A stretch of DNA of 64,000 nucleotides from assembly GCA_964354815.1 (NCBI GenBank), contig CAYHBG010000001.1:10803-74802 (forward strand). Reading direction: 5' to 3'. A program made the position numbers and the translations under genes. This document shows positions 8,919-49,850 of this stretch, piece after piece (position 1 is the stretch's first letter; the number at the start of each line of letters is the position of its first letter). The notes beneath the pieces were generated by a model, which worked only from the letters and a program-made list of their open reading frames with translations, was not told the DNA's origin and did not search any database. This DNA is from an uncultured Thermotogae bacterium. Its GTDB lineage: Bacteria; Bipolaricaulota; Bipolaricaulia; UBA7950; UBA9294.

Positions 8919-9265
8919 TGCACACCCTCACCCTTGTGGGTGACCCGAACGACGGCACCCACGGCCTGTACATGAACGGCGTCCTCATCTGTGACAGCGG
9001 CGATGCCGACGCCACCCTCAACAGCCCCGACCTGGACTTCTGGCGCGATGCCCTCGACGCCGCCATCACCGCCCTGGGAGGAGAGCTGGACGAGCAGACC
9101 CGCTACCGCCCAGGCCGGAAGGCCGGCGCTCCGTTCGAGGAGGAGTGGGAGTCCTTCTGGCCCGAGAAGCTCGAGAACATGGGGCCCGTTGAGCCACCCA
9201 TCGGAGAGGAGCCCGTCTTCGAGCTCGACGACGAGGAGCCTGCCAACCCCGACTACATCTTCTGA
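8918..9265 (+). CDS. hypothetical acidic protein (115 aa)
   Basis: TGATG overlap start; strongly acidic C-terminus (EPVFELDDEEPANPDYIF). Confidence 0.45.
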   Translation: MHTLTLVGDPNDGTHGLYMNGVLICDSGDADATLNSPDLDFWRDALDAAITALGGELDEQTRYRPGRKAGAPFEEEWESFWPEKLENMGPVEPPIGEEPVFELDDEEPANPDYIF

Positions 9266-9741
9266 TGCGAGTCGCCATCGCGGGGAGCCGACGCCTGCCG
9301 AAGGGCCAGGCTCCCCGCCTCCTCATCCGTTTCCTCGCGGCGCTGCCGGACGACGCCGTGATCCTCATGCGCCGGCCGAAGGGCGACGGCTCCCTCGCCG
9401 GGTCCCTGCCGGGTCCCTTCGAGATGGACGCGCAGAACCTGTGCGGGATCCTCCACCTCGCGGCGGAGTGGTTCCAGCCGGAGCCGACGGACCATCACCC
9501 GGGGAGGGCCAGCGTCTACCTCCGCGACATCGAGATGATCGAGAAGGCGGATCTGGTGATCCTGTTCGTCCACCCCGACGAGGTGGACACGGGGTACAGC
9601 GGGACCATGCACCTCCTCGACAAGGCTCTCGACGCAGCCCGCCCCTGCTACGCCTACAGCGTGTCCCCGGACGGCAAGGTCGCGAGAGTGGGGGAGTACG
9701 ACCCGGACCACCTCTACGCCGAGATTGCACCTTCCGCTTGA
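9265..9741 (+). CDS. SLOG/DUF2493-like Rossmann-fold protein (DprA/LOG-like fold)
   Basis: MRVAIAGSRRL N-terminus, later DIEMIEKADLVILF, pattern typical of phage DUF2493/SLOG proteins; ends immediately before the promoter and RNA array. Confidence 0.45.
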   Translation: MRVAIAGSRRLPKGQAPRLLIRFLAALPDDAVILMRRPKGDGSLAGSLPGPFEMDAQNLCGILHLAAEWFQPEPTDHHPGRASVYLRDIEMIEKADLVILFVHPDEVDTGYSGTMHLLDKALDAARPCYAYSVSPDGKVARVGEYDPDHLYAEIAPSA

Positions 9742-9767
9742 CATGGCGATATTCGCCAGCGTATTGT
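9738..9767 (+). promoter_or_regulatory. near-consensus sigma-A-type promoter TTGACA-N18-TATTGT at the head of the non-coding RNA array
   Basis: ttgaca 9738-9743, 18-nt spacer, tattgt 9762-9767; only array unit with a full -35/-10 pair. Confidence 0.45.
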
Positions 9768-9822
9768 TCGTGGGCCGTCGCGGTGCGTATGGTGGGGTTA
9801 CTTCCCTTGTAAGGACGAGGTA

Positions 9823-9875
9823 GCGGGTTCGACTCCCGTCACGCCGGAAACGTCGTGTAGCTCATCGGCAGAGCG
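9823..9875 (+). ncRNA. tRNA-like module 1 (permuted: T-arm -> acceptor-type hairpin -> D-arm), candidate Y-RNA-like tRNA mimic
   Basis: gcggg-TTCGACT-cccgt T-arm (9823-9839), cacgccg/gaaa/cgtcgtg hairpin (6 of 7 bp), ta + gctc-atcggca-gagc D-arm (9858-9874); no anticodon arm in canonical position. Confidence 0.4.
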
Positions 9876-9974
9876 CGAAACATCCTCGCCAGACCTGTTC
9901 TCGTCGCGGCACTTGACAATCGAATAGTGGTGGCGGTGCGAAGGCCAGGGATACTTCGATGGGATCTGTGGGTC

Positions 9975-10031
9975 GCGGGTTCGAGTCCCGTCCCCCTGTA
10001 CATGCAGGGGGTAGCTCAGTCTGGTAGAGCA
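9975..10031 (+). ncRNA. tRNA-like module 2 (permuted T-arm -> perfect 7-bp acceptor-type hairpin -> canonical D-arm), candidate Y-RNA-like tRNA mimic
   Basis: gcggg-TTCGAGT-cccgt T-arm (9975-9991), ccccctg/tacatg/caggggg perfect hairpin (9992-10011), ta + GCTC-AGTCTGGTA-GAGC D-arm (10012-10030). Confidence 0.45.
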
Positions 10032-10561
10032 ATAGATGTGAAAGACCTTGACCGACCAGTCCTCGCCTCCACAACAACCGTGCTGACGGTGCGTAGCCTG
10101 GGGATACTTCTCTTGAAAGGAACCTCTGGCGACCTGTCCTCGTCAGCAACAACCGTGCTGACGGTGCGTAGGGTGGGGGTTACTTCCCCTTCTTGGAGAC
10201 AAGGTTCGACTCCTTCGGGTGACCTCGGTCACCTGTAGGCGGGGGTGGCCCCGCGTAGACACCCCTCCGCCCGCTTGATCTCGTCAGCAACAACCGTCTC
10301 GGCGGTGCGTAGACAGGGGTTACTTCGTTGGTTGACACTTCCCCCTTCAACAAGGGGAAGCGGGCGGCTCGACTCCGCCAAGCTGCCTCCGTCGCCTTGA
10401 TCTCGCCGGGACAACATCAACGCCAGCGGTGCGTAGGAGAGGGTTACTTCGGTGCCAGGGCTTCGGCCCACCGACGGTCTACCGGACCGTCAACCCCGCA
10501 AGGGGTCGTCTCCTTCTCCGACTTGACCTCGCTGGCAACAGCCTGAAAGGCAGACGCTTGA

Positions 10562-12160
10562 ATGGGCAAGCTCGCCACGCGGCCGAAGGCCGCACCGAAG
10601 GCCGCGATCCGCTCCACGAAGGGGCGGAAGCCGGACACCAAGACCTTCAACTCTGGTGCCGGGTTCAGCCGCGAGCCGAAGTCGGAGCTGTACCTCCTGG
10701 CCGTGACGAACATGGTCAGCGAGAAGACGTTCTACGAGTCCGCCGAGACTCGTGACCGCCGGTTCAACGACCTCATCCGCCAAGTGGCGCTCGAGGATCC
10801 CGACTGGCTGGCGCGGTTCGTGCCGTACCTCCGCGACACCATGAACATGCGGACGGCCTCCATCGTGATGGCGGCCGAGACGGTCCACGCGAAGCTGACC
10901 AAGCCGGTCCCCGCGTCCACGATCAAGAACCGGACGATCATCGACTCCGCCATCAAGCGGGCCGACGAGCCGGCGGAGATGCTGGGCTACTGGTTCAGCG
11001 AGTGGGGCAAGAACCTCCCGCAGCCGGTGAAGCGCGGCGTGGCCGACGCGGTCCAGCGCCTGTATGGCGAGCGCAGCCTCATCAAGTACGACGGCGGCGA
11101 CAAGGCCATCCGGTTCGCGGATGTGATCGACCTCGTCCACCCGGAGGCGAAGGCCCCCTGGCAGTCGGCCCTGTTCAAGTACGCCCTCGATGACCGCCAC
11201 AAGCGGGAGAACCCGCTGCCCGGCGACCTCGCCATGATCGGTCTCAACCGTCTGGCGATGGGCCTCGGTGACGTTGCGTTCCGGGAGGCGTTCGGACCCT
11301 CGTTCGTGGAGCACGCCGGCCTCACCTGGGAGCAGGCGAGCTCGAAGTACGGCAAGCTCGACGCCCGGTTCTGGGAGGCGATGATCCCCTCGATGGGCAT
11401 CTTCGCCATCGTGCGGAACCTCCGCAACTTCGACGACGCGAAGATCAGCAACGCCGCCCAGGACCTGGTGCGGGCCAAGCTGACCGATGCCGAGACCATC
11501 GCCAAGAGCCGGATGTTCCCGCTCCGCTTCTTCACCGCCTTCCTGGCGACGAAGACGCTGACCTACGCCCGCGAGCTCGAGACCGCCATCGACCTGTCGC
11601 TGGCGAACGTGCCCAGCCTCAAGGGCAAGACGCTGATCCTCGTGGACATCAGCCGGTCGATGGACTGGGCGCTGTCCGCGAAGAGCGACGTGGTCCGGCT
11701 GGCCCCGGCCAGCATCTTCGGCGCGGCGCTCGCGGTCCGGGCGGAGAAGCCGACCCTCGTCGCCTTCACCGACACGAGCGTGGAGATCCACGTCCGCAAG
11801 GGCCAGAGCATCCTGCTCGCGACCAAGGAGATCGCGAACGCCCTGCCCCATCAGGGCACCCAGACCTTCCAGGCGGTGAAGCGCCACTTCAACAGTCACG
11901 ACCGCGTGATCATCATCACCGACGAGCAGGCTGACCCCTCGACGGCCTGGGGCTTCGGGGTGCGGGACACGTCCGACGTGGACCCGTCCGCGATCCTGCC
12001 CGAGACGGTGCCGCTGTTCACCTTCAACGTCGCGGGCTATGCCGCCGGCCACGCGCCGTCGGGGAAGCGCAACCGCTACGCCTTCGGCGGGCTGAACGAC
12101 TCCGCCTTCACCGCCATCGAGCTCCTCGAGAAGGGGCGCGACCAGACCTGGCCCTTCTGA
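10562..12160 (+). CDS. rsr: Ro60-related protein (Rsr): TROVE domain plus C-terminal von Willebrand A domain
   Basis: 532 aa; alpha-helical N-terminal region (FYESAETRDRRFNDLIRQVALEDPDWLARFVPYLRDTMNMRTASIV) typical of TROVE; vWA MIDAS motif LILVDISRSMDW about aa 357; Ro60 orthologs are typically adjacent to Y RNA genes. Confidence 0.7.
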   Translation: MGKLATRPKAAPKAAIRSTKGRKPDTKTFNSGAGFSREPKSELYLLAVTNMVSEKTFYESAETRDRRFNDLIRQVALEDPDWLARFVPYLRDTMNMRTASIVMAAETVHAKLTKPVPASTIKNRTIIDSAIKRADEPAEMLGYWFSEWGKNLPQPVKRGVADAVQRLYGERSLIKYDGGDKAIRFADVIDLVHPEAKAPWQSALFKYALDDRHKRENPLPGDLAMIGLNRLAMGLGDVAFREAFGPSFVEHAGLTWEQASSKYGKLDARFWEAMIPSMGIFAIVRNLRNFDDAKISNAAQDLVRAKLTDAETIAKSRMFPLRFFTAFLATKTLTYARELETAIDLSLANVPSLKGKTLILVDISRSMDWALSAKSDVVRLAPASIFGAALAVRAEKPTLVAFTDTSVEIHVRKGQSILLATKEIANALPHQGTQTFQAVKRHFNSHDRVIIITDEQADPSTAWGFGVRDTSDVDPSAILPETVPLFTFNVAGYAAGHAPSGKRNRYAFGGLNDSAFTAIELLEKGRDQTWPF

Positions 12161-12161
12161 G

Positions 12162-12686
12162 ATGGACGAAACAGCCGAGCGCCCTGATGGGTCATGGACC
12201 CTGAAGGACGCTCGGGCCTGGCTCCGCGAGCAGAGGGTTGATGGCGTCCGCTGTCCCTGCTGCACCCAGTTCGCCAAGATCTACAAGCGTCCCATCAACA
12301 GCCAGCAGACCCGTGCCCTGATCCTCCTCTACCGCCTGCGGGGTCGAGAATGGGCACACATCACCCGCGTGGACAAGAGCCTTGAGGGCAACGGGGGCGA
12401 CATCAGCAAGCTCCGCTACTGGGGCCTGGTCGAAGAGGCCGACGAAACGAGGCCAGACGGTGGCCGGGCAGGATGGTGGCGGATCACAGCCAGGGGCGAA
12501 CAATGGCTCCACGGGCAGCTCCTGGTCCCCAAGTTCGCCTACATCTTCGACACCCGTCTTCTCGAGCTCGATGGCCCGCCAACATCTGTTCGTACCGCTC
12601 TCGGGACGAAGTTCAACTACGAGGAGCTGATGGGTCCCGCCCTATCCAACCGAGACACCTTCTGGGACCTGGATCCCATCGAGTAG
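12162..12686 (+). CDS. hypothetical protein with CPCC motif (174 aa)
   Basis: ATG 2 nt after the rsr stop; VRCPCCTQFAKIYKRP; ends TAG 12684-12686. Confidence 0.5.
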   Translation: MDETAERPDGSWTLKDARAWLREQRVDGVRCPCCTQFAKIYKRPINSQQTRALILLYRLRGREWAHITRVDKSLEGNGGDISKLRYWGLVEEADETRPDGGRAGWWRITARGEQWLHGQLLVPKFAYIFDTRLLELDGPPTSVRTALGTKFNYEELMGPALSNRDTFWDLDPIE

Positions 12687-23453: not shown

Positions 23454-26400
23454 CTACACCGCCGGGGAGCGGAGACCGAGCATCTGGCCCTTCTTCGCGA
23501 GGACGCGCTCAACCTCGTGGGCCACGGCACGAGCCAGGTGCGAGATGTCCTGCTCGCCGCGAACCACGGGGCCGTTGATGTTCACGGTCACGCTGGAGGG
23601 ACCGCCGCCGAACCCGCCGCCCACATCCACCGAACGGGGGTTGCGGAGGATGGCAACCGCCTCGTCTCCCGCCTCGCCCATGATGGCGCGGGTCTTGCCC
23701 TTCGCCATGCCGACAATGCCGGCGGCGTGCGCGATGGTCGGAGCGGTGACGCTCGTCCCGGTCCTCGTCTTCTGGAACGAGAAGCCAAGAGCCTCGAGGA
23801 ACGACCGCATCCCGGTGGATGCCCCGCCGACGTAGTCGCCGAGCGTGGAAAGGTCAGCGTTCGCCTGCTTGATCGTGCCGCCGAACGTGTCGGCGTACTG
23901 CGCCGCCAGGTCCTGGGCGATGGAGTACTTGTTCATCGCGGTGTTGTAGATATCGTCCGCCTTGCCGAGATCGGTAGCGATCTGGGTGTTGAGGGCCGCG
24001 ATGGCGGCCTGGGCCGCCGCCGTCTCGACCTCCGCCGTGTGGGCGGCCTGAGAGGCGGCCCATGCAGCCTGGGCGTCCTGAAGGTTCCGCTGGGCCTGGA
24101 TCTTCCACTCCTCGCCGGTCCCGGCGTAGGACTCCTTGGCATAGCCCAGCTTCTGCTGGCCGATGCCGGCGGTGATGATCGCCTCCTTCTGGCGCATGTA
24201 CCGCTCTTCGCCCGTCTCGCCGGGAGCCTGGAACTGGGCGATGGCGAGCTGGGTCGTGATCTGCCGCTGCTGGAGGGCGAGGTCGAGCGCCTGGCTGGCG
24301 CGGCCGATCTGCCAGAGGTGCCGCTGGAGCTTGCCAAGGGCGGACCCTCCGGCCTGGCCCAGCATGCCGGCCGCGTCCGCGATGCCACGCAGGGCCAGGC
24401 GGGTCGTGTTGGCCCAACTCGCCTGAGAGGCGGTGGCGGACAACTCACCGATCTGACTCTGGAGGTTGGCGACCTCACGACTCGCGTCTTGCGCCGAGGT
24501 CATCAGGCCCTTGTAGCGATCAGCATTGGCCTGGCCGGACGTGGGGAGCATCTGCTTCCCGAACTGGCCTTCACCGAGGGACACCGTCTGCATCGTGCCC
24601 GGACCGGGCTGGCTCTGGATCTCCGCGTAGGCCTTGTCGATGGCCTTCTGGTTGTCGATCTCCTGTGCGACCTGAAGCTCGGTGGCGCGAGCCATGTACC
24701 CGGCCGCCTCCGCTGCGGCTCCCTTGGACAGGCCCATGCCGCCGCCGAACGTGGGCGTTCCGCCCTTGCCGAACTTGACCGTGGGCTTGCCGCTCAGGAT
24801 CTGCTGGTACTCGTCGGTCGCCATGCCCTTGGCCCAGTCGGACCAGCCCTGCTGGTTGCCGAACGAGGCCCCGGCCCTGGTCCGCTGCTTCTGCCAGTAC
24901 GAGATACCAGCCGCCCCCGGCACGACCCCCGATCCGGCGGGGAGATACGGACTCTGGATCCGCTGCATCGCCTGGTTGAGCGGGATCGTCAGGGTCTGGG
25001 TGATCATGCTCGCGATGTCGAGGCGCTCGAACTGCACCGCGACCTTGCGCTCCATCGTCTTGCCCCACTCCGCCGCGTCGGGGATCGTGAGGCCGGTCGT
25101 CCAGTCCTTGAGCGCCTTGTCGATGGTGTTGAAGTCCGTGATGATCTTGCCGGTAGCATCCGTGAAGGCGTACCCGGTGTTCATCAGGTTCTTGACCATC
25201 TGGGGCAGCGCGGCAGCGGCGGGACTCTTGCCCGCATCACGCGCCTCCTGCCCCCGGTACGCCATCGTGGGTCCGGCCGCAGCCCCGACCCGCTTCTGGG
25301 CGCGGGTCATCGCGGCGTTCGTGGAGTCGGTGATGGCGAGTTCGGCATCCATCATCGAGTTGAACTTCTGGGAGACCTCGTTCCAGTTGCCGAACTCCGT
25401 CGGGGAGTAGTACATCTCCTGGACGTTCTTCGGCCGCAGAGCCGGCTCGCCGCCCGGTGTCTGGTTCAGGATGTCCCCGACGATGGCACCGATGCCGCCG
25501 GCGGCAGCACCGCCGACAGCGCCTGCGCCGACGCCGAACGGGGTGGCCGACCACGCCCCGAGACCAGCTCCGGCAGCAGCCCCGGCACCGGCAGCGCCGA
25601 TGTAGCGCCCGATGCCGGTGTCGCCACGGCTGGCCCGGATGGTGTTGACCAACTCCTCGACCGCGCCAGACCCGCCGCCGAACTGGGTCCCGAACAGGGG
25701 TCCGCCCATGACGCCGCCGTAGCCGCCATAAAGGCCCTGGGCCCCACCCTGCATGCTGGCGGCGGCCAGGATCTGGTCCGACGCCTCGGACCACGCCTTG
25801 CCGCCAGCCTTGGCGACGACGGACGCCTTGAGGGCATCTTCCACCCAGCTCCCGACGGAAAGCGAGAGACCAGCCGTCGCAGCCGTTCCAGCGATGGCGG
25901 CCTGGTAGTTACCACCCTGCTGGCGCGTCTGATCAGCGAGGGCGTTCGTGACCTTGGTGGCCGTCGGAGCCATGCCCATCATCACGTCGCCGACACGCTG
26001 CATGGCCGGTAGGGCAGCCTCGTCAATGATCTTCGACGCAGCCTGCATCGCCATGCCGTAGAGGCTGGTCGAGCCAATGATCACGCCCAGGTTGCGGAGC
26101 ACGCCGCCCGTGGTGGGCATCGTCTTCTTGGTGGCGGCATCTAGCTCCTTCTGGTATTGCCTCTCGGCCTGAACCAGCGGCTTGATGGTCTCGCTGTTCT
26201 TCTTCCTGGCCCCCTCGAGCTCCTTCTCCGCGTCGGCTCGTTCGGGCGTTCCCTCCCCGTACTTATCGACCTCGGAGCGGTAGGCATTCAGGTTCGCCAC
26301 GCCCTTCTGGATGGCGTATCCGGTGCGGTTGTGCGCCTGGGTGTACGCCTTCTCCGCCTGGGCGCGGGCGACCATCGCCCGGTCGTATCCCTGGACGCCG

Positions 26401-41659: not shown

Positions 41660-41985
41660 TACTGCCGGCGGACGTTGATCGTCACCTCAGGACTGGTGGT
41701 CTGAACGCGACCGCCCTGGTAAGTGATCTCCCATTGGACGATGTACGTCCCTGGGACCGCGAGGTCGTTGGGACCCCACGAGTAGCTGACCTTGCCTGCT
41801 GGGCCGTCGAGGACCACACCCCCGGCATTCACCGTGTAGCGGTGGTCGTCCGCCTTCCGCATCTGGAACTTGACCCCGCTGACGTAGGCGGGGGAGCAGT
41901 CGAGGATGGACGACGGGTCGTCCTCTTCGTGGATGATGGCCGTGATGTCCGGGGCGGTGTCGCCCTGGACGAAGGTCAGGCTCAT
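41659..41985 (-). CDS. small beta-rich hypothetical protein (108 aa), possible Ig-like accessory domain protein
   Basis: ATG 41985 in ATGA overlap with the giant gene stop (41982-41984); ORF-track 352-aa version is a GC-frame over-extension. Confidence 0.4.
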   Translation of the reverse strand: MSLTFVQGDTAPDITAIIHEEDDPSSILDCSPAYVSGVKFQMRKADDHRYTVNAGGVVLDGPAGKVSYSWGPNDLAVPGTYIVQWEITYQGGRVQTTSPEVTINVRRQ

Positions 41986-44900
41986 GCGATCTCCGCGTCG
42001 AGGGTGAAGGTGCCGGCGATCCACGCCCCGGTCCTGAAGTAGTTCCGGCGGGTGAAGAGCCAGGTGAAGTCGAGCGTCCGCGCCGAGAGGGCCGGCGCGA
42101 TGGTGGCTGCGGTGTGGTCGCCCTCGATGGTCCCGGCCCACAGGTCGGGAGCAAGGGTTGCGGCGCTGAAGGTCCCCTCGATCTCGACCGTGATCCGCAG
42201 GCTGATCGAGGCGTCGATCCCGAACGTCCCGGTCCCAGCCGAGCCGATGACCGCGTCGAGCGTGAAGGAGACCGCCCCGAAGCCCGTGATCAGGGCGTCG
42301 AGGGTGAACGATGAGACAGGGCTGGAGCTGATCGAGGCGTCGGCCGTGAGGGTTCCGACGGAGCTCGCGAGGATGGTCGCCGCCGCATCGAAGGCGGAGG
42401 AGGGAGACCCCGTGATGACGGCGGCGACCGGGAAGGATCCGGTGACGGCCCCGACCACGATCTCGGCGGCGGCCGGGAAGGAGGAGGTCTGAGGGGACAG
42501 GGAGACGGCGTCGGTGGCGAACCCGCCCATTCGGGTGGCTGCCACGACCGCCTGGGTCGTGAAGCCTGCCTGCTGCGCCGTCTTCAGGACTGCGGCTGCG
42601 CCGAACCCACCGGGATAGGTCCGACGCAGGATCGCGTCCACGGAAACTGTAACAGAGCGCGTGCGCTTGACAACAGCGTCTGCAGCGAAAGCTCCGGCGT
42701 TCGCCCCGAAGATCCACGCCGCCGCGCTGAACGTCGAGACTGACTGGAAACTGATCACCGCGTCAGCGGCGACGGTTCCCGAGTTGTGGCGCAGCAGGAT
42801 CGCGTCGGTCGTGAACGAGCCGCCCTCCGCGACGGGCGCGACGATCCACGCTTCCGTGGTGAACGACCCGCCGACGGAGGCCTCCACCAGGGCCGAGACG
42901 GTCAGGACGCCAGCGCCCTGATGGGCGATGATGGCGTCGGTCGTCAGGGACGCTGGTGCCGTCCGGTGGATGACGGCGTCGGCTTGGACATGGGACGACG
43001 CCGTTCCCCTGACGACCGCATCCGCAGAGAAGGCGCTGGTCCCGGCCCCAGCCACCAGGGCCGCCACGCCGAAGGAGGTCAACGTGGGCTTGAGGACGAT
43101 GCTGTCCGAGGCGAAGGACGCCTGGACCGGACGCAGGATGGAGGCGTCGGCCGCGAAGCTCGACGTGGCGCTCGAGACGACCATCGCGCTCAACGAGAAC
43201 GCGCTCGCCCTGCTCGACATGATCGCCGAGTCGATCCTGAGCAGCCCCACCGCGCTCGAGCGGATGACCGCGTCCGCTGACAGGCTCGACACAGCCGCCG
43301 AACGGATCACCGCGTCGGTCGTGAAGGCGGAGGAGGCGCTCGAGCGGATGACCGCGTTGGCAGCGAAGGTCGAGGACGCCGTCGCGAGGAACAGCGCGTC
43401 CAGCGTGACCGGAGCTGACGCCTGGGTCCTGAGGAGCGCGGCATCCAACGTGACCGAGGCGTAGACCGGGCCCGCGATCCAGGCGTCGAGGTTGAAGAAG
43501 CCCGCCCGCCCAGCCCGGATGAAGGCATCGACGCTGATCGCGCCAGCCAGCCAGGAGCCAACCGTGAAGGTGCCCGAGAGCCACGCCCCGACCGGGAAGC
43601 TATGTGCGGTCTCTGACCGGATGACCGCATCCGCAGATAGACCGGAGATAGACGTGCGCCCGACGGTCGCGGAGGCCGTGAAGAAGGTCTGCGACGAGGA
43701 GCGGATGACCGCGCTCGCGGCCAGGGTCGCGGCGACGTTCCTGGAGATGATGGCCGAGGACGTGAAGGAGCTGGCGGTGGACCGCCGGACGACCGCATCC
43801 ACCGAGAAGGAGTAGGTCTTGGACGTGCGAACGAGGGCGGCGACGTTGAAGGTGAAGGCGACGTTCCTCGCCAACACCGCGTCGGACGTGAAGGTGAAGA
43901 TGGCCGCGCTGCGGATGATCGCGTCCATCGAGAAGGTCGAGGCGGCCGAGTCCCGCTTGACGGCAGCAGCCGAGAACGTGAAGGAGGCGCTGCTCCTGAT
44001 GACCGCGTCCGCAGCCGCGCTCGACGATGCCGTGGAGCGCAGCACCGACGCGACCGCGAAGGTGTTCGACTGACCCTTGGCGAGGACGGCCCCGGCGAAG
44101 AACGTCCCGGTGGCGGTCCGCTTGCTGATCGCAGCGGCGGTGAAGCTGCCGGCGGCCGTGCCCCTGATGACGGCGTTCACCGTCAGGGCCGACGAGACCG
44201 TCCTCTTGATGACCGCGTTCGCGGTGAAGGAGCCAGCGGTCGTCTCCCCGACGAGGGCAGCGACCGTGAACGACCCCGCCAGATGCCCCAGGACGGCCGC
44301 ATCCGCCGTCCACGCCGTACCACTCCGGGTTCCCCGCAGGATCGCGTAGGCGACGGTGCTGGAGGCCCTGGGGGCCAGGATCGTGGCGTTGGTCTGCCAG
44401 AAGCCCGAGGCGGAGACCTTCAGGACCGCGTTCGCGGTCAGGCTCCCCGTGTTCGTCTTCTGGATCCACGCCGCCGTTGTGAAAGCACCCGTGCGTGGGG
44501 CCTTGAATACGGCATCGGCCGTGAACGTCCTGCTAACGGTCCCCTTCACAACGGCGTTGGCCGAGGTGGCGCTCGTGGCCGTGGCCTTGACGAGGGCGTA
44601 GAGGGTCGTCGCGCCGCTGGCGCTGCCCTTGATGACCGCGTTCGCGGAGAAGGTTCCCGTCGGGACCCGGATCAGCCAGGCAGAAGCGGTCGTGGAGCCG
44701 GTCGAGGACCGCAGCAGGGTGGCGCTGGCGGTGAACGAGGCAGCCTGGGTGCGCTTCAGGACGGCGCTCACGCCGAAGGTGCCCGCCGTCGCGCCGTAGA
44801 TCAGGGCGGAGGCGGTGAAGGACCCGGACCTGGTGGCCTTCAGGGTCGCGGCTGCGGTGAACGTCCCGGCATTGGTCTTCTGGATCCACGCGGCTGCGGT

Positions 44901-46080
44901 GAAGGTGCCTGCCTGCGACCGCTTGATCACTGCGTTCGCCGTGGTGCTGCCGCTCGCGGACGCCTTGACCAAGGCCGCTGCCGTGAAGGTGCCGGAGGCG
45001 CTCGAGCGGATGACCGCGTTGGCCGTCAGGGATCCGCTGACTGTGGCCTTGATGCAGGCAGACGCGCTGAACGTGCCCGAAACGGGCTTCTGGAGCCACG
45101 AAGATGCAGTCAGGCTGCCGTTTCGGGTCGTCCTGACCACCGCGTTCGCGGTCAGGGAGGCGGTCGTAGAGGCCTTGACGAGAGCGGCAGCCGTGAACGA
45201 TCCCGCCTGACCCCGCTTCAGGACGGCGTTGGCCGTGAGGCCCGAGCTCGCCGTCCCCTTGACCACGGCCGCAGCCGTGAACGTCGAGGCGACCGTCTTC
45301 TGGACCCACGCCGCTGCCGCGAAGCTCGATGACGCCGGCCGCTGCACCACCGCAGCGGCGGTGAACGACCCTGCGGCGGTTGCCTTGACGAGGGCGGCAG
45401 CGGTGAACGTGCCCGCCTGGGTCCGCCGCACCACCGCATCGGCCTTGGTCGAGCCTGCGGCGGTCGCCTTGACGACCGCGTTGGCGGTGGTCGAGGAGGC
45501 GTAGGTCTTCTGGATCCACGCGCTCGCCGTGAACGTCGAGGACAGCGTGGCCTTGCGGACGGCATCGGCCGTGAAGGTGCCCGACCTCGTCGCCTTCAGG
45601 ACGGCGTTGGCGGTCGTGGACGAGGTGGCCGTCCCCTTGACCACCGCGTTCGCCGTGAGCGACGACGAGATCGTCGCCTTTCGCACGGCGTCTGCCGTGA
45701 AGGTCTTCGTGGACGACGTGGCCTTGATGACCGCGTTCGCGGTCGTGCTGCCGCTGGTGGTCCTCTTCAGGATCGAGTCGGCCTTCAGGGTCGAGGCTGT
45801 GACCGTCGCCTTGACCACGGCTGCCGCCGTGAACGTCCCGGTGCGGGTGCCCTTCAGGACCGCGTTGGCGGTCAGGGACCCCGCCTGGGTGCGCTTCAGG
45901 ACGGCGTTCGCCGTCAGGGCCGACGAGACCGTCCTCTTGATGACCGCGTTCGCGGTGAATGCCCCGCTGGCCGTCGTCCGGCGGATGGCGTCGGCGGTGA
46001 ACGAGCCCGACTGCGTCTTCCGCAGGATTGCATCAGCGGTGAGACCGACGATGCCACCCTTGCCCGTGATGTAGTGCGCG
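41982..46080 (-). repeat. about 4.1 kb of in-frame tandem ~48-51-nt coding repeats (FTADAV/FTANAV peptide repeats)
   Basis: Periodic ...gcgtc.gcggtgaa.g...c.g... pattern visible on the plus strand; translated repeats are listed in the ORF track. Confidence 0.7.
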
Positions 46081-49000
46081 GCGACTCGCGTGCTCGACAG
46101 CGCCGTGGCGTAAATCGCTACTTCGTCGTAGTCACCCCTGAAGAAGTCAGCGGGGAAGTAGTACATATTGCTGTCGGCCCATGTGAGCCCGGTCTTCGTA
46201 TCTCCCTGCACGCCATCGACGTAGATGGTGAAATCGGACGCCGCCTTGACACAGACAATGTGATGCCAGTTGGTGTCGGTGATGGCCTGAGAGGACAGCG
46301 CGCCAGAACCAGAATGCCCATGAGGCCAGAACCGAATCCGATCATCCCCCTCGATTTCGATAATCGGCGCGTCGTCAGCCGTCTGGTTGAGTAGGTACTC
46401 CTCGGCCCCCGAGCGGGTTCTCTTGAACCACATCTCGATGGATTGCGGGTTGTTCCCGAACTTGAGAACAGCCGGAGCAGGATCGATACGAAGCCTACCG
46501 TTGTTGTTCGCGCCGGTATTCAGCGCGGTGTTCGAATCGCCAACAATGGCACCCGTGATACCGAACAACGGGTCGGTCGGCCCCGGCAACTCCCCTGTGC
46601 CATACCACGTCGCCGTGACGGCACCCATCTCATCGACAGGTGGGTTGGCCTTACTTGCCTCGCCCAGCCGCCAGTACGCGACAGGTGAGTCTCCGAGAAC
46701 CAGCCCGTGATAGGGCTGCATGGTCTTCTTGAGGACGGCGTTCGCCGTCAGGGACCCGGCCTGGGCCCGCTTCAAGACCGCATCGGCCTTGGTGGACCCG
46801 GTGATCGTCTGGGCGGTCACGGCCAGCACGGCGTCGGCAGAGAGCGACCCCGCCTGTGTCCGCTTCAGAACGGCGTCAGACGAGAATGTCCCGCCGGTCG
46901 GCGGCGTACCGATGTAGGAGTCGAGGGTGATCCCGCCGGAAGACTCGCTGTAGAGCTCGAAGCCCCACACGTCGAGGCCGGCGTAGTTCACAGTCGCAAC
47001 GCTGACGATGCGGTAGTAGCGGAAGGACGCTGCGTCCCACGAGAACTCGGTGACGCTGTGGTCGGCGTGGTAGTAGCCGTAGTTGCCCGAGGAATGAACG
47101 GACCTGTGGTTGGTGTGATCTGCCGGACCAGCCAGGGTGGTGTATGAGCTGAAGGCGGAGTCGCTCGAGCCGTCGATCCTCAGGGCACCCGTGAGGGTGG
47201 TTTCCGTGACCGCAGAGGCGTCCAGCATTGCCCCGACGGTGGACTTGGCAGACCCCAGATCGAAGTACATGTCGATCCGGTTGCCGAGCTGAACCTTGGT
47301 GTTAGGGTCCTCGTCCACGATGGCGGCCGGGTCCCCGACGACAAGGCCGTCAGTCGAGTGGTAGGCGTAGGGGACGAGCCGGTAGACGAGGTTGGCCTTG
47401 CCCTTGGTCACCCGCCCGATGCCGATCCAGGCATCGACGGTGAAGGACCCCGGAGCCCGGATCGTGAGGTCGTCAAGGTACGTCCAGGAGAAAGGTTCTG
47501 CCGACCCGGCGTGGGTGGTGACGATGCCGACGTTCCCCGGTCGCTGGAGGGACGCCTCGGAGTCCTCGACGGAGAGGTTCCAGCCTGCCGGCTCAGAGCC
47601 CCCCGTGGCCCAGTACTTCACCTTCAGGACGGTTGGGTTGACCCCCTGCACCCTGACCCGCATGTAGAAGGGGGCCGTGGGCCAGCCGTTCGTATCCTCC
47701 GCGATGCTGGTGGGACCGCTGTAGAGGCCGTCAGTCCACTTGCCGATGGTGGGGTTGTAGATGCTGAAGCTGGGGTTCGAGCCGATGACATAGGAGGCGT
47801 TGGGGCGGTAGAAGGAGCCGCTGAAGGATCCAGACGTGTAGTACATGTACTGCCAGGCCTGGATGCGCGAGGCGAACCAGAACGCGCTGTCCCAGCCCGC
47901 TGTGTTGACGGTGACCAGAAACTCCACGTCCTGAGGCCGGTACTGGCCTCCCGTGTCGCTCTGGATGTAGGTCATCTCCTTGGGCTGGGTATAGCCACCC
48001 GACGCGAGGTAGAGGGTGTTGCTCGAGATCGTGGAATAGCCGCCGTAGGCGTTGTGGGGGGTGCGCCACTTCACGCCGATGGTGTCAGGGGTCCGACCCT
48101 CGAGGTAGGTCCCGTCCGTCCCCGCGAACGTGTCCCAGGTGATCAGCTTGTAGCCGGTGCCCTTCTCGATGGCCGCGCCGACCGTGAACGAGCTGCTGAC
48201 ACCCGTCTTCTTGATGACGGCGTTGGTGGTGAAGAACGGTTGGATCCAGGCGTTGAGACGGAAGTACCTCTCCTGGATCACGGCCCCAGCCGCGAAGCCC
48301 AGGAACTCCAGCCCCGTAGCGGAGAAGGTGGCCGACGCGTGTGTCCCCTGGATGCCCTTCAGGACGTGGTAGGGGACGAGGTTCCAGCCGGAGTCCCCGC
48401 CGTAGACCTCGAGCGATGGGTAGGCGGTGACCAGCCCCAGCCCGCCACCGTTGCCGGTCGAGGTGCCTACGTCGTAGATCTCGGTGAGCTTGTTGTCGAG
48501 GTAGCCGCTGCTGGTGGCGTTGATCGGTGTCCAGGCGCTGAAGCGTGGTAGATCGCTATCAACCGGGTCGGAGAAGGCGTAGAGCAGGAGGGCGTTCTGC
48601 CAGCAATGCTCTTCGTGATCGAGGTCGGCGGTTGCGAGCGACGAGACGGTGGCAACGCTCGTATCGCTGAAGTTCCACGCCCCAGCGATGAAGTTGAGAC
48701 CCATCTCCGAGGAGTCGCCTCCGCCCGTGTTCTGGGCGTTGTAGGTGGGTCCACCCACGCCACCGAACGCCAGGATCACGCCGTAGACGTGGTTGGCGGC
48801 GGGACTGAACGAGATGGCGGCCGATGACTCCGTGCCGCCGTGCGTCCCCTTGCGGGTCGCATAGATCGCGATGGCCGTCTCGGTCGTGAGGACGCCGGTC
48901 CCCGTAGAACTCTGGATACCGATGACATACCAGGGGTAGCCGTTGGTGACGAGGTCCGTGGACGCGGTGAAGTCGTTCATCCCAGCGCACTCGATGAACG

Positions 49001-49850
49001 CGACCAGGAGATCGCCGTCGTTCGAGGCGGGGATGGTCATCGTCAGGCTGCTGGTGCCCGACGCTGCCGTGCCCAAGGAGCGGACGAACGGCCTGCCACC
49101 GTACTGGGTCCTCTTGATGACCGCGTCAACCTTGAACGTGGGCACGGCGCGCACGCCGAAGAGGACGCTCGCCACGCGTTCTGCGGCAGACAGGGTGGCC
49201 GTGACCGTGATGGTCTGTCCCGAGGCAACACCGGTCGAGGCGACCCGGTAGATCAGGTCCGCAGCCATGTCGTTGCCGGTCGTGGACGACAGGTGTGTGG
49301 CCGGGTACTCGACGACGTTCGCGCCCCACGACGGACCGCCAGAGATCGCGGTCGTGGCGCGAGTGAAGGTGGCGCTGTCGTCGGCGACACCCGTCAGGGC
49401 GAAGACGAGCTGGTTGATGTTGATGAAGCCCGTCGTCGTGAGGGTGTGGGACATCGCCGTGCTGCCCATCGCCTGCTCGACGGAGTTGGCGAGCTTCGCG
49501 ATGTCCCAGCCTTCGGTCGCGGCCTTCTGGAGGACGATGATGACCGAGCCTGCGGGGGTGATCGCGCCCGAGCGGGTCAGGGTCGGGTTGTTCGTCTCCG
49601 ATGCGCCGAGGATCTTCCAGGCGACATAGACGCGGGATGAACCAACGCCGATGCCGTTCGCCGTTGACCCCGGCGTCTCGTCGATGATCTCCGTCCACGA
49701 CTGGTCGATGGTCGCGGTGACGCTGTACGGCCTCCAGGCCGCGACGAGGATGCCGAGGTCACCGGCCGAGTAGCCGCCGGGGATCGTGGTCGCGACGTTC
49801 TGGGTGGTGGTGGCAGCCCAGGTTCCTGCGGCGCGAACGGAGATCGCCAT
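41982..49850 (-). CDS. giant 2622-aa fibrous repeat protein with LamG/concanavalin-A-like lectin domain
   Basis: Single ORF; N-terminal ~900 aa globular; LamG-like segment ...NWHHIVCVKAASDFTIYVDGVQGDTKTG...FRGDYDEVAIYATALSSTRVAAHY (nt ~46090-46730); C-terminal ~1350 aa are ~80 degenerate 16-17-aa repeats (GSFTANAVLKRTQA-like). Confidence 0.7.
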   Translation of the reverse strand: MAISVRAAGTWAATTTQNVATTIPGGYSAGDLGILVAAWRPYSVTATIDQSWTEIIDETPGSTANGIGVGSSRVYVAWKILGASETNNPTLTRSGAITPAGSVIIVLQKAATEGWDIAKLANSVEQAMGSTAMSHTLTTTGFININQLVFALTGVADDSATFTRATTAISGGPSWGANVVEYPATHLSSTTGNDMAADLIYRVASTGVASGQTITVTATLSAAERVASVLFGVRAVPTFKVDAVIKRTQYGGRPFVRSLGTAASGTSSLTMTIPASNDGDLLVAFIECAGMNDFTASTDLVTNGYPWYVIGIQSSTGTGVLTTETAIAIYATRKGTHGGTESSAAISFSPAANHVYGVILAFGGVGGPTYNAQNTGGGDSSEMGLNFIAGAWNFSDTSVATVSSLATADLDHEEHCWQNALLLYAFSDPVDSDLPRFSAWTPINATSSGYLDNKLTEIYDVGTSTGNGGGLGLVTAYPSLEVYGGDSGWNLVPYHVLKGIQGTHASATFSATGLEFLGFAAGAVIQERYFRLNAWIQPFFTTNAVIKKTGVSSSFTVGAAIEKGTGYKLITWDTFAGTDGTYLEGRTPDTIGVKWRTPHNAYGGYSTISSNTLYLASGGYTQPKEMTYIQSDTGGQYRPQDVEFLVTVNTAGWDSAFWFASRIQAWQYMYYTSGSFSGSFYRPNASYVIGSNPSFSIYNPTIGKWTDGLYSGPTSIAEDTNGWPTAPFYMRVRVQGVNPTVLKVKYWATGGSEPAGWNLSVEDSEASLQRPGNVGIVTTHAGSAEPFSWTYLDDLTIRAPGSFTVDAWIGIGRVTKGKANLVYRLVPYAYHSTDGLVVGDPAAIVDEDPNTKVQLGNRIDMYFDLGSAKSTVGAMLDASAVTETTLTGALRIDGSSDSAFSSYTTLAGPADHTNHRSVHSSGNYGYYHADHSVTEFSWDAASFRYYRIVSVATVNYAGLDVWGFELYSESSGGITLDSYIGTPPTGGTFSSDAVLKRTQAGSLSADAVLAVTAQTITGSTKADAVLKRAQAGSLTANAVLKKTMQPYHGLVLGDSPVAYWRLGEASKANPPVDEMGAVTATWYGTGELPGPTDPLFGITGAIVGDSNTALNTGANNNGRLRIDPAPAVLKFGNNPQSIEMWFKRTRSGAEEYLLNQTADDAPIIEIEGDDRIRFWPHGHSGSGALSSQAITDTNWHHIVCVKAASDFTIYVDGVQGDTKTGLTWADSNMYYFPADFFRGDYDEVAIYATALSSTRVAAHYITGKGGIVGLTADAILRKTQSGSFTADAIRRTTASGAFTANAVIKRTVSSALTANAVLKRTQAGSLTANAVLKGTRTGTFTAAAVVKATVTASTLKADSILKRTTSGSTTANAVIKATSSTKTFTADAVRKATISSSLTANAVVKGTATSSTTANAVLKATRSGTFTADAVRKATLSSTFTASAWIQKTYASSTTANAVVKATAAGSTKADAVVRRTQAGTFTAAALVKATAAGSFTAAAVVQRPASSSFAAAAWVQKTVASTFTAAAVVKGTASSGLTANAVLKRGQAGSFTAAALVKASTTASLTANAVVRTTRNGSLTASSWLQKPVSGTFSASACIKATVSGSLTANAVIRSSASGTFTAAALVKASASGSTTANAVIKRSQAGTFTAAAWIQKTNAGTFTAAATLKATRSGSFTASALIYGATAGTFGVSAVLKRTQAASFTASATLLRSSTGSTTASAWLIRVPTGTFSANAVIKGSASGATTLYALVKATATSATSANAVVKGTVSRTFTADAVFKAPRTGAFTTAAWIQKTNTGSLTANAVLKVSASGFWQTNATILAPRASSTVAYAILRGTRSGTAWTADAAVLGHLAGSFTVAALVGETTAGSFTANAVIKRTVSSALTVNAVIRGTAAGSFTAAAISKRTATGTFFAGAVLAKGQSNTFAVASVLRSTASSSAAADAVIRSSASFTFSAAAVKRDSAASTFSMDAIIRSAAIFTFTSDAVLARNVAFTFNVAALVRTSKTYSFSVDAVVRRSTASSFTSSAIISRNVAATLAASAVIRSSSQTFFTASATVGRTSISGLSADAVIRSETAHSFPVGAWLSGTFTVGSWLAGAISVDAFIRAGRAGFFNLDAWIAGPVYASVTLDAALLRTQASAPVTLDALFLATASSTFAANAVIRSSASSAFTTDAVIRSAAVSSLSADAVIRSSAVGLLRIDSAIMSSRASAFSLSAMVVSSATSSFAADASILRPVQASFASDSIVLKPTLTSFGVAALVAGAGTSAFSADAVVRGTASSHVQADAVIHRTAPASLTTDAIIAHQGAGVLTVSALVEASVGGSFTTEAWIVAPVAEGGSFTTDAILLRHNSGTVAADAVISFQSVSTFSAAAWIFGANAGAFAADAVVKRTRSVTVSVDAILRRTYPGGFGAAAVLKTAQQAGFTTQAVVAATRMGGFATDAVSLSPQTSSFPAAAEIVVGAVTGSFPVAAVITGSPSSAFDAAATILASSVGTLTADASISSSPVSSFTLDALITGFGAVSFTLDAVIGSAGTGTFGIDASISLRITVEIEGTFSAATLAPDLWAGTIEGDHTAATIAPALSARTLDFTWLFTRRNYFRTGAWIAGTFTLDAEIA

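What the first reader, a model, noticed from the sequence alone, without database searches (positions are those of the whole stretch)
9823..10031. Circularly permuted tRNA-like topology: T-arm, then an acceptor-type stem closed by a short loop, then a D-arm (twice)
Two modules show a canonical T-arm, a 7-bp acceptor-like helix whose two strands are joined by a 4-6-nt loop, and a near-consensus D-arm:
- 9823-9875: GCGGG-TTCGACT-CCCGT; helix with 6 of 7 base pairs.
- 9975-10031: GCGGG-TTCGAGT-CCCGT; ccccctg/caggggg perfect 7-bp helix; D-arm GTAGCTCAGTCTGGTAGAGC.
No anticodon arm follows at tRNA spacing. This order is what a Y-RNA-type tRNA mimic would look like, not a transferable tRNA. It could recruit tRNA-processing or modifying enzymes, or serve as a processing signal for a polycistronic precursor.
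Basis: seen in the sequence. Interest (0 to 1): 0.8.

Follow-up and report, generated by a model that had tools for sequence, protein, structure and literature searches.

The report
Phage Y RNAs that mimic tRNA
The two "permuted tRNA" modules are real, but they belong to a known class: YrlA-type Y RNAs, tRNA mimics that partner the Ro60 protein, here as the first two of six Y-RNA-like units just upstream of a phage Ro60 gene.

Summary
At 9823-9874 and 9975-10030 there is a canonical T-arm, a 7-bp acceptor-type hairpin (6/7 and 7/7 pairs; loops of 4 and 6 nt) and a near-consensus D-arm. ARAGORN calls no tRNA anywhere in the window.

Both modules are the best local Rfam hits to YrlA (RF02553, E 1e-8 and 8e-5, below the gathering score). 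A TROVE/Ro60 gene (10562-12160) lies about 530 nt downstream on the same strand. The same T/acceptor-hairpin/D order sits upstream of the Ro60 gene in 50 of 66 related actinobacterial and viral loci. In those modules the acceptor hairpin covaries (91.7% paired, against 40-50% out of register).

Each module sits inside a larger RNA (U1 9774-9910, U2 9927-10072). Two covarying stems close each RNA around a conserved UGCG(U/A)A internal loop, the likely Ro60-binding site. Four more units with the same core but other inserts follow (U3-U6, to 10537). All six lie behind one promoter-like site.

This matches published YrlA/YrlB biology, including the 7-bp acceptor stem that makes M. smegmatis YrlA an RNase P and CCA-adding substrate. 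It is a new member of a known kind. The six-unit array is the only modestly new aspect.

The parts
9738..9767 (+). Promoter-like site TTGACA-18 nt-TATTGT, ending about 7 nt before unit 1
   Evidence: Consensus scan gives 10 of 12 matches and this is the only site in 9500-12400. A near-identical TTGACA...TTATTGT or TATCGT element precedes the arrays in relatives L005 and L002. Function is inferred.
9774..9910 (+). Unit U1: YrlA-type Y RNA (137 nt). It has a terminal stem, UGCGUA internal loop, second stem, UUACUUC, a V-like hairpin, the tRNA-like module and the closing strands.
   Evidence: Coordinates. The MFE fold reproduces both closing stems plus the V, T, acceptor and D hairpins in one multiloop. 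Core model R1 scores 53.6 bits.
9823..9874 (+). tRNA-like module of U1: T-arm 9823-9839, acceptor-type hairpin 9840-9857 (6/7 bp, GAAA loop), UA, D-arm 9860-9874
   Evidence: Rfam YrlA 32 bits, E 7.9e-5. Parsed.
9927..10072 (+). Unit U2: YrlA-type Y RNA (146 nt) with UGCGAA in the internal loop
   Evidence: Coordinates. R1 scores 59.1 bits. The MFE fold gives the T, acceptor and D hairpins and the terminal stem, but not the second closing stem.
9975..10030 (+). tRNA-like module of U2: T-arm 9975-9991, perfect 7-bp acceptor-type hairpin 9992-10011 (loop UACAUG), UA, D-arm 10014-10030
   Evidence: Rfam YrlA 45.4 bits, E 1.1e-8. Parsed.
10080..10148 (+). Unit U3: minimal Y-RNA-like unit (69 nt), the core stems plus a 19-nt apical region
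   Evidence: R1 scores 67.6 bits. Fold z-score is -2.27.
10155..10289 (+). Unit U4: Y-RNA-like unit with a T-arm-like hairpin (AAGG-UUCGACU-CCUU, 10201-10215) and two GC-rich hairpins, but no D-arm or acceptor hairpin
   Evidence: Coordinates. GGTTCGACTCC at 10203-10213. Fold z-score is -2.92 with both closing stems in the MFE. R1 finds only the 3' part.
10296..10411 (+). Unit U5: Y-RNA-like unit with a T-arm-like hairpin GGCGG-CUCGACU-CCGCC (10363-10379)
   Evidence: R1 scores 62.7 bits. GGCTCGACTCC at 10366-10376. The MFE fold does not reproduce the second stem.
10420..10537 (+). Unit U6: Y-RNA-like unit with three hairpins in the insert and no T-arm
   Evidence: R1 scores 62.5 bits. Fold z-score is -3.88 with both closing stems in the MFE. 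A similar last unit is present in L005.
10562..12160 (+). Ro60/Rsr homologue (532 aa; TROVE plus a vWA-like domain)
   Evidence: Pfam TROVE E 6.6e-14, and vWA_Ro60 at 19 bits, below its cut-off. It is 37-44% identical over its full length to proteins annotated 'Ro-like RNA binding protein' in Streptomyces, Gordonia and Arthrobacter phages. The best solved relative is Thermus phage phiLo Ro60, PDB 9KOP/9L5Y, E 6e-23.

Best explanation
The two modules are the tRNA-like effector domains of two YrlA-type Y RNAs. These are the first two members of a six-unit Y RNA array (9774-10537), probably transcribed from one promoter together with the phage's Ro60 gene.

Each unit is closed by two helices that flank a conserved internal loop: 5' UGCG(U/A)A and 3' G-C-(C/U)UG-type. 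By homology with other Y RNAs, this is where the Ro60 ring binds. The variable insert is the effector or partner-binding end.

In U1 and U2 the insert is an L-shaped tRNA mimic in which the acceptor stem is closed by a loop and the anticodon-stem position leads into the Ro-binding stem. Both acceptor-type stems have the full 7 bp. They are therefore probably cut in the loop by host RNase P, trimmed and given CCA, as in M. smegmatis YrlA, which would leave two-piece Y RNAs held together on Ro60.

The RNP probably gates Ro60 and tethers it to a host partner such as PNPase during infection.

Shown here: the sequence anatomy, covariation of the stems, linkage to Ro60, and family resemblance. Inferred: transcription, Ro60 binding, RNase P/CCA processing, and the partner and its role in infection.
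For: - Rfam YrlA is the top local hit for both modules.
- A Ro60/TROVE gene lies on the same strand about 530 nt downstream.
- Alignment-free test on 60 distinct T/acceptor/D modules next to Ro60 genes: the 7 nt after the T-arm pair with the 7 nt before UA-GCUC in 91.7% of cells, against 40-50% when shifted, with many pair types per position.
- The six units share a core whose two stems covary among the paralogues: 92.3% paired, 11 of 18 pairs changed on both sides, slid controls 48-56%.
- A covariance model of that core finds nothing else in the 64-kb window. It finds 89 hits at E<=1 in the 66 loci. All but four weak ones (E>=0.006) lie on the Ro60 strand upstream of the Ro60 match, and most Ro60 loci have at least one.
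- 51 of these hits give 91% pairing against 41-54% slid.
- The MFE fold of U1 reproduces the whole architecture.
- Published definition and biochemistry of YrlA/YrlB: PMC4201824. [quoted passage not shown] A phage Ro60 binding two upstream Y-like RNAs and host PNPase: PMC12135203.
- The window is a phage genome: portal, ERF recombinase, HNH endonuclease, primase/helicase.
Against: - Both Rfam YrlA hits are below the gathering score (45.4 and 32 against 69). They cover only model positions 23-89 of 114, so the Ro-binding ends do not match Rfam's model. However, no YrlA hit reached that score in 19 related loci, including cellular actinobacterial ones.
- The published 5' motif GNCGAAN0-1G is not matched literally. 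U2 has UGCGAAG, and U1 and U3-U6 have UGCGUA(G/U).
- Folding energies of U1, U2 and U5 are no better than shuffles.
- The alignment used was fitted to the model, which favours the structure.
- There are no expression, binding or processing data for this phage.
Confidence: 0.9

Rival explanations
1. Remnants of tandem tRNA genes or tRNA pseudogenes. On this view the T-arm and 3' acceptor strand come from one decayed tRNA and the 5' acceptor strand and D-arm from the next, with no present function.
For: Related phages such as BRock, L006, L007, L012 and L018 place Ro60 inside true tRNA gene arrays. The general tRNA model gives a near-threshold hit over 9781-9847 (26.2 bits against 29).
Against: In real neighbouring tRNAs the two strands belong to different molecules and need not pair. 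Here they pair 6/7 and 7/7 across 4-6-nt loops. Across 60 modules the pairing is 91.7% with covariation. The few regex hits with only 2-4 of 7 pairs have long loops, and I read them as neighbouring tRNAs rather than modules; this was not checked. The modules are enclosed by covarying stems shared with four other units. The array order is conserved in relatives at 53-71% Ro60 identity.
Confidence: 0.03
2. Circularly permuted tRNA genes, as in some red algae and archaea. The transcript would be circularised and re-cut to give a functional decoding tRNA.
For: The 3' half precedes the 5' half. U2 has a 5-bp helix at the anticodon-stem position (by eye). U1 has a hairpin with an anticodon-loop-like CUUGUAA.
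Against: No 7-nt anticodon loop closes the anticodon-stem position; the strands continue into the Ro-binding stems. ARAGORN calls nothing. The U1 hairpin sits at the variable-arm position, as described for YrlA, and folds differently in the MFE. From general knowledge, the bulge-helix-bulge splicing machinery this pathway needs is not known in bacteria.
Confidence: 0.02
3. A repeated regulatory DNA or leader element, such as repeated promoters or operators with TTGAC-like and TAGGGT-like boxes, or attenuators. On this view it controls Ro60 expression and does not produce stable RNAs.
For: The units contain TTGA(C/T)C and TAG-type hexamers. One good sigma-70-like promoter precedes the array. 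Nothing is known about expression.
Against: What is conserved is base pairing, not sequence: compensatory changes occur in 11 of 18 pairs among the six units. The promoter scan finds no further sites inside the array. The T- and D-arm sequences are those of YrlA.
Confidence: 0.05

Closest known systems
YrlA (Y RNA-like A; Rfam RF02553), especially the actinobacterial form typified by Mycobacterium smegmatis YrlA
   Same: The module order V, T-arm, acceptor-type stem-loop, D-arm is the same, and so are the conserved T- and D-stem sequences (GCGGG/CCCG(C/U); GCUC/GAGC). The YUAY-like UUAC/AUAC precedes the module. The RNA is encoded just upstream of Ro60 on the same strand. The acceptor-type stem is 7 bp, as in M. 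smegmatis.
   Different: The score is below Rfam's gathering threshold and the Ro-binding ends do not match Rfam's model. The 5' motif is UGCG(U/A)A rather than a literal GNCGAA. There are two YrlA-type units in one array, which is also seen in about 10 of the 66 related loci. The setting is phage, not cellular.
YrlB of M. smegmatis and S. Typhimurium (a second Ro60-bound Y RNA, with a possible T-arm)
   Same: U4 and U5 share the Ro-binding core and carry only a T-arm-like hairpin. They lie between YrlA and the Ro60 gene, and YrlB is reported to be co-processed with YrlA from one precursor.
   Different: The window has four non-YrlA units rather than one.
Thermus phage phiLo Ro60 with Yrl1/Yrl2 (PMC12135203; PDB 9KOP, 9L5Y)
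   Same: It is a phage-encoded Ro60, and the closest solved relative of this one (E 6e-23). Y-like RNAs lie upstream of the gene, defined by a 5'-3' stem flanking an internal loop with a CGAA motif.
   Different: phiLo has two units, and that paper does not mention a tRNA-like module. Only U2 here has CGAA; the others have CGUA. The host phylum differs.
Metazoan Y RNAs and D. radiodurans Yrn1
   Same: They are modular: closing stems with a conserved bulged or internal-loop Ro60 site, plus a variable effector end. From my own knowledge of the human Y1 sequence, the 5' strand GGUGCGAAGG...AUACUUC resembles GGUCCGAAGG...UUAUCUC. This resemblance was not tested here.
   Different: Metazoan Y RNAs lack a tRNA-like domain. 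Yrn1 has its T and D elements in a different orientation.

Membership tests
YrlA-type bacterial/phage Y RNA | Encoded within about 4 kb of a Ro60 (TROVE) gene, on the same strand (Chen et al. 2014) | tested here: met
   Units lie at 9774-10537 (+) and the TROVE protein gene at 10562-12160 (+).
YrlA-type bacterial/phage Y RNA | Nearly invariant T and D stem-loops resembling the tRNA T- and D-arms | tested here: met
   GCGGG-UUCGA(C/G)U-CCCGU and GUAGCUCA...GAGC align to the YrlA consensus. The same sequences occur in 60 modules from related Ro60 loci.
YrlA-type bacterial/phage Y RNA | A stem-loop between T and D that takes the place of the acceptor stem, conserved in pairing rather than sequence | tested here: met
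   The stems form 6/7 and 7/7 pairs. The family-wide figure is 91.7% paired against 40-50% shifted, with 4-6 standard pair types per position for pairs 1-6.
YrlA-type bacterial/phage Y RNA | 5' GNCGAAN0-1G motif (the likely Ro60 contact) in a stem/internal-loop module formed by the 5' and 3' ends | tested here: inconclusive
   The stem/internal-loop module is present and covaries. The motif itself is UGCGAAGG in U2 and UGCGUAUGG in U1, so it is not a literal match. GCG(A/U)AG is the form found across the related actinobacterial and viral loci.
YrlA-type bacterial/phage Y RNA | Score at or above Rfam RF02553 gathering threshold (69 bits) | tested here: not met
   Scores are 45.4 and 32 bits, and there is no hit at gathering threshold. 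None of 19 related Ro60 loci, including Streptomyces, Nocardia, Actinomadura and other cellular ones, gave a YrlA hit at the threshold either. The threshold therefore appears too strict for this clade and does not exclude membership.
YrlA-type bacterial/phage Y RNA | Bound by Ro60/Rsr in vivo; carries pseudouridine-55 and dihydrouridine; RNase P/CCA processing when the stem is 7 bp | not testable with these tools
   This needs immunoprecipitation, modification mapping and cleavage assays.
Canonical tRNA | Cloverleaf with an anticodon stem-loop and an open acceptor stem with a free 3' end | tested here: not met
   ARAGORN genes in the window. The Rfam tRNA model scores 26.2 bits against 29, only over 9781-9847. 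The acceptor strands are joined by a loop.
Circularly permuted tRNA gene | Ends of the precursor form a complete anticodon arm or intron junction, so that circularisation and re-cutting yield a normal tRNA | tested here: not met
   The strands flanking the module run into the covarying Ro-binding stems with no 7-nt anticodon loop.
tmRNA (one- or two-piece) | tRNA-like domain plus a tag-peptide reading frame | tested here: not met
   ARAGORN, which searches for tmRNA, finds none. There is no Rfam tmRNA hit.

The most novel reading that the evidence does not exclude
The phage carries an operon of six structurally different Y RNAs: two RNase-P-cleavable tRNA mimics, two T-arm-only units, one minimal unit and one three-hairpin unit. 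This was the largest array among the 67 Ro60 loci I looked at. Its unit types and order recur, in part, in uncultured relatives. The array could be a set of interchangeable adaptors that point one phage Ro60 ring at several host partners. Alternatively it could act as decoys for host tRNA-directed enzymes or defence nucleases during infection. Either would be a use of Y RNAs that has not been described.
Probability: 0.15. Interest if true: 0.6.

Novelty: new member of a known kind. Interest (0 to 1): 0.3.

Why it matters
The practical value is for annotation. The region is non-coding RNA, not tRNA genes and not small ORFs, and Rfam's threshold misses the actinobacterial and phage branch of the family. 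[quoted passage not shown] It also shows that some actinophage lineages carry multi-unit Y RNA arrays (four to six units) behind one promoter with Ro60. That makes the open question of what the variable Y RNA modules recruit easier to approach by comparison. It does not change the current picture of Y RNAs.

Tried and rejected
- ARAGORN on the whole window found nothing.
- Rfam at gathering thresholds found nothing. The family became visible only with an E-value search of 1 kb.
- A fixed-spacing pattern for the 5' motif found nothing because the spacing varies. A flexible regular expression worked.
- Tandem Repeats Finder does not see the array, because the units are too divergent.
- Running the core model with filters off gave worse, truncated alignments for units with long inserts, so I did not use it.
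- The core model barely detects Gordonia phage Trax (13.4 bits), so it is specific to this clade and is not a general Y RNA detector.
- NCBIfam gave no name for Ro60 or its neighbours. Pfam and PHROGs gave no informative function for the flanking genes 9265-9741 and 12162-12686.
- No RtcB, RtcA or PNPase gene turned up among the ORFs I scanned in the window.
- A second Ro60 copy in the window was looked for and not found.
- Folding-energy z-scores do not support U1, U2 and U5.
- The review PMC10870794 is not held, so I could not check whether arrays of more than two bacterial or phage Y RNAs have been reviewed. A literature search for actinophage Y RNA arrays found nothing specific.
- The readings as tRNA pseudogene, permuted tRNA gene, tmRNA and repeated promoter were considered and rejected, as set out under the rival explanations.

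Full report
**1. The observation**

| Element | Module 1 | Module 2 |
|---|---|---|
| T-arm | GCGGG-TTCGACT-CCCGT, 9823-9839 | GCGGG-TTCGAGT-CCCGT, 9975-9991 |
| Acceptor-type hairpin | CACGCCG-GAAA-CGTCGTG, 9840-9857, 6 of 7 pairs | CCCCCTG-TACATG-CAGGGGG, 9992-10011, 7 of 7 pairs |
| Linker | UA | UA |
| D-arm | GCTC-ATCGGCA-GAGC, 9860-9874 | GCTC-AGTCTGGTA-GAGC, 10014-10030 |

ARAGORN reports no tRNA or tmRNA anywhere in the 64-kb window. Rfam at curated thresholds reports nothing.

**2. What the modules are**

- An E-value search of 1 kb around the finding against all Rfam families puts YrlA (RF02553, 'Y RNA-like') first for both modules. The scores are 45.4 bits (E 1.1e-8) at 9967-10038 and 32 bits (E 7.9e-5) at 9816-9877.
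- In both cases only model positions 23-89 of 114 are matched, which is the tRNA-like domain.
- The next ORF downstream on the same strand (10562-12160, 532 aa) has a TROVE domain (Pfam E 6.6e-14) and a weak Ro60-type vWA match.
- This protein is 37-44% identical over its full length to proteins annotated 'Ro-like RNA binding protein' in Streptomyces, Gordonia and Arthrobacter phages.
- Its closest solved relative is the Ro60 of Thermus phage phiLo, E 6e-23.
- The window itself is a phage genome of about 66% G+C, with a portal protein, ERF recombinase, HNH endonuclease and primase/helicase.

**3. The larger RNAs and the array**

Each module sits inside a longer unit with the same layout:
- a terminal stem;
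- a conserved 5' UGCG(U/A)A;
- a second stem ending in GGG;
- (U/A)UACUUC;
- a variable insert;
- the 3' strand of the second stem;
- a conserved G-C-(C/U)UG-type stretch;
- CUCG and the 3' strand of the terminal stem.

Six such units follow one another.

| Unit | Coordinates | Insert |
|---|---|---|
| U1 | 9774-9910 | T/acceptor/D module, preceded by a V-like hairpin |
| U2 | 9927-10072 | T/acceptor/D module |
| U3 | 10080-10148 | Minimal, 12 nt |
| U4 | 10155-10289 | T-arm-like hairpin only, with a UUCGACU loop |
| U5 | 10296-10411 | T-arm-like hairpin only, with a CUCGACU loop |
| U6 | 10420-10537 | Three other hairpins |

Evidence that the core is a real RNA structure:
- In an alignment of the six cores (real 5' and 3' halves joined by an artificial GAAA), the two stems are 92.3% paired. 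Eleven of 18 pairs are changed on both sides, against 48-56% pairing when the partner is slid by 1-3 columns.
- A covariance model of this core finds only these six places in the window; U4 is found only in part.
- One sigma-70-like promoter (TTGACA-18-TATTGT, 9738-9767) precedes U1. No terminator-like site lies downstream of it, between the array and the Ro60 gene.
- MFE folds reproduce the full architecture for U1, U3, U4 and U6.
- Folding energy is not better than shuffles for U1, U2 and U5, so the support is comparative.

**4. Relatives**

I collected 26 viral and 39 cellular loci encoding relatives of this Ro60, plus Streptomyces phage BRock.
- The core model gives 89 hits at E<=1 in these loci. 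All but four weak ones (E>=0.006) lie on the Ro60 strand upstream of the Ro60 match, mostly within about 1 kb.
- 51 strong hits give 91% pairing against 41-54% slid. The caveat is that this alignment was fitted to the model.
- A pattern for T-loop, 12-45 nt, then D-arm finds the permuted module in 50 of the 66 loci, always on the Ro60 strand, giving 60 distinct modules.
- Without any alignment, the 7 nt that follow the T-arm pair with the 7 nt that precede UA-GCUC in 91.7% of cells, against 40-50% out of register. Forty of the 60 have all 7 pairs, most loops are 4-7 nt, and each of positions 1-6 has four to six standard pair types.
- About ten loci have two such modules.
- The closest relatives are uncultured viral contigs at 53-71% Ro60 identity (L002-L005). 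They have the same promoter element, arrays of about four to five units, and some of the same unit types in a similar order.
- Cellular loci mostly show one or two units.
- No YrlA hit reached Rfam's gathering score in 19 of these loci.

**5. Comparison with what is known**

- Chen et al. 2014 (PMC4201824) defined YrlA RNAs by a 5' GNCGAAN0-1G motif, a YUAY, and V, T, AS (acceptor-like) and D stem-loops, encoded within 4 kb of Ro60 on the same strand. They found them in 254 bacteria and 22 phages.
- They showed that M. smegmatis YrlA, uniquely among those tested, has a 7-bp acceptor stem. It is cut by RNase P and receives CCA. A second RNA, YrlB, with a possible T-arm lies between YrlA and rsr and comes from the same precursor.
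- A phage Ro60 that binds two upstream Y-like RNAs and host PNPase has been characterised.

The finding is therefore a member of this family. Two defining features were not cleanly met: the Rfam threshold, which also fails for the relatives, and the literal 5' motif, where the form here is UGCG(U/A)A.

**6. Mechanism**

- Shown: anatomy, covariation, linkage to Ro60, and conservation.
- Inferred, by homology with published systems: co-transcription with Ro60 and processing into single units. The A/C-rich spacers between units may be the cleavage sites.
- Also inferred: binding of Ro60 at the internal-loop module, and RNase P cleavage in the acceptor loops of U1 and U2 followed by trimming and CCA addition.
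- Also inferred: use of the variable ends to gate Ro60 or tether it to a host partner such as PNPase.
- I put 0.9 on the identification as Ro60-associated Y RNAs and about 0.5 on the RNase P/CCA step.

**7. Verdict**

This is a new member of a known kind. The six-unit array is the part that may not have been described, but I could not check the main review, and the closest relatives show about four to five units by my count, so it is a modest extension.

Noticed in passing
window 10073-10079, 10149-10154, 10290-10295, 10412-10419: The spacers between units are short and A/C-rich (AACAACC three times, then CAACAUCA). ACAAC-type spacers also separate units in L003 and L004. They may be single-stranded processing sites for the precursor.
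   Followed up: partly
window 9781-9847: The general tRNA model gives a near-threshold hit (26.2 bits against 29). It pairs the conserved 5' CGGUGCG with the acceptor 3' strand and uses a hairpin with an anticodon-like loop CUUGUAA. Similar sequence (CCC..(A)AGG(A/U)(C)G(U)GG) occurs at the same position in L002, L003 and L004 units, where YrlA has its V arm. The MFE folds it differently. An alternative tRNA-like conformer is not excluded.
   Followed up: partly
window 10275-10283, 10396-10404, 10522-10530: The 3' internal-loop strand of U4-U6 reads CUUGAUC or CUUGACC. From memory this resembles the UUGAC of the 3' strand of the metazoan Ro60-binding helix. U1-U3 have CCUGU(U/C)C or CCAGUCC instead. 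Chen et al. say the 3' strand is not recognisable in Salmonella or M. smegmatis Y RNAs.
   Followed up: no
L067 (Gordonia phage Trax MK967378.1) 260-1073; also phages Neville and Rabbitrun: Five tiny 'hypothetical protein' CDSs (34-66 aa) are annotated in the roughly 900 nt upstream of the Ro-like gene. The blastn match to this window's U1 T/acceptor/D module falls under gp93. These are probably Y RNAs annotated as ORFs. In this window, spurious ORFs such as 9927-10238 (+) and 9862-10152 (-) cover the array in the same way.
   Followed up: partly
L002 and L005 (IMGVR_UViG_3300028802_000007, 130,935 bp): One viral contig carries two Ro60 genes about 75 kb apart, each 71% identical to the window's and each with its own promoter and Y RNA array. 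This could be two real paralogous loci or an assembly or concatemer effect.
   Followed up: no
L001 (Streptomyces phage BRock), L006, L007, L012, L018: In these phages the Ro60 gene and Y-RNA-like units are interleaved with real tRNA genes. In L018, for example, units and tRNAs alternate. This window has no tRNA gene at all.
   Followed up: partly
window 23454-33029 (-) and 41982-49850 (-): There are two very long ORFs. One is 3191 aa with no Pfam match. The other is 2622 aa with a Laminin_G_3/concanavalin-like domain and no PHROG match. They may be giant structural or tail proteins, but in 66% G+C DNA long ORFs also arise by chance.
   Followed up: partly
window 9744-9758: A 6-bp hairpin (TGGCGA-TAT-TCGCCA) sits between the -35 and -10 hexamers of the array promoter. 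The scan flagged it as terminator-like. It could be an operator, or the terminator of the upstream gene.
   Followed up: no
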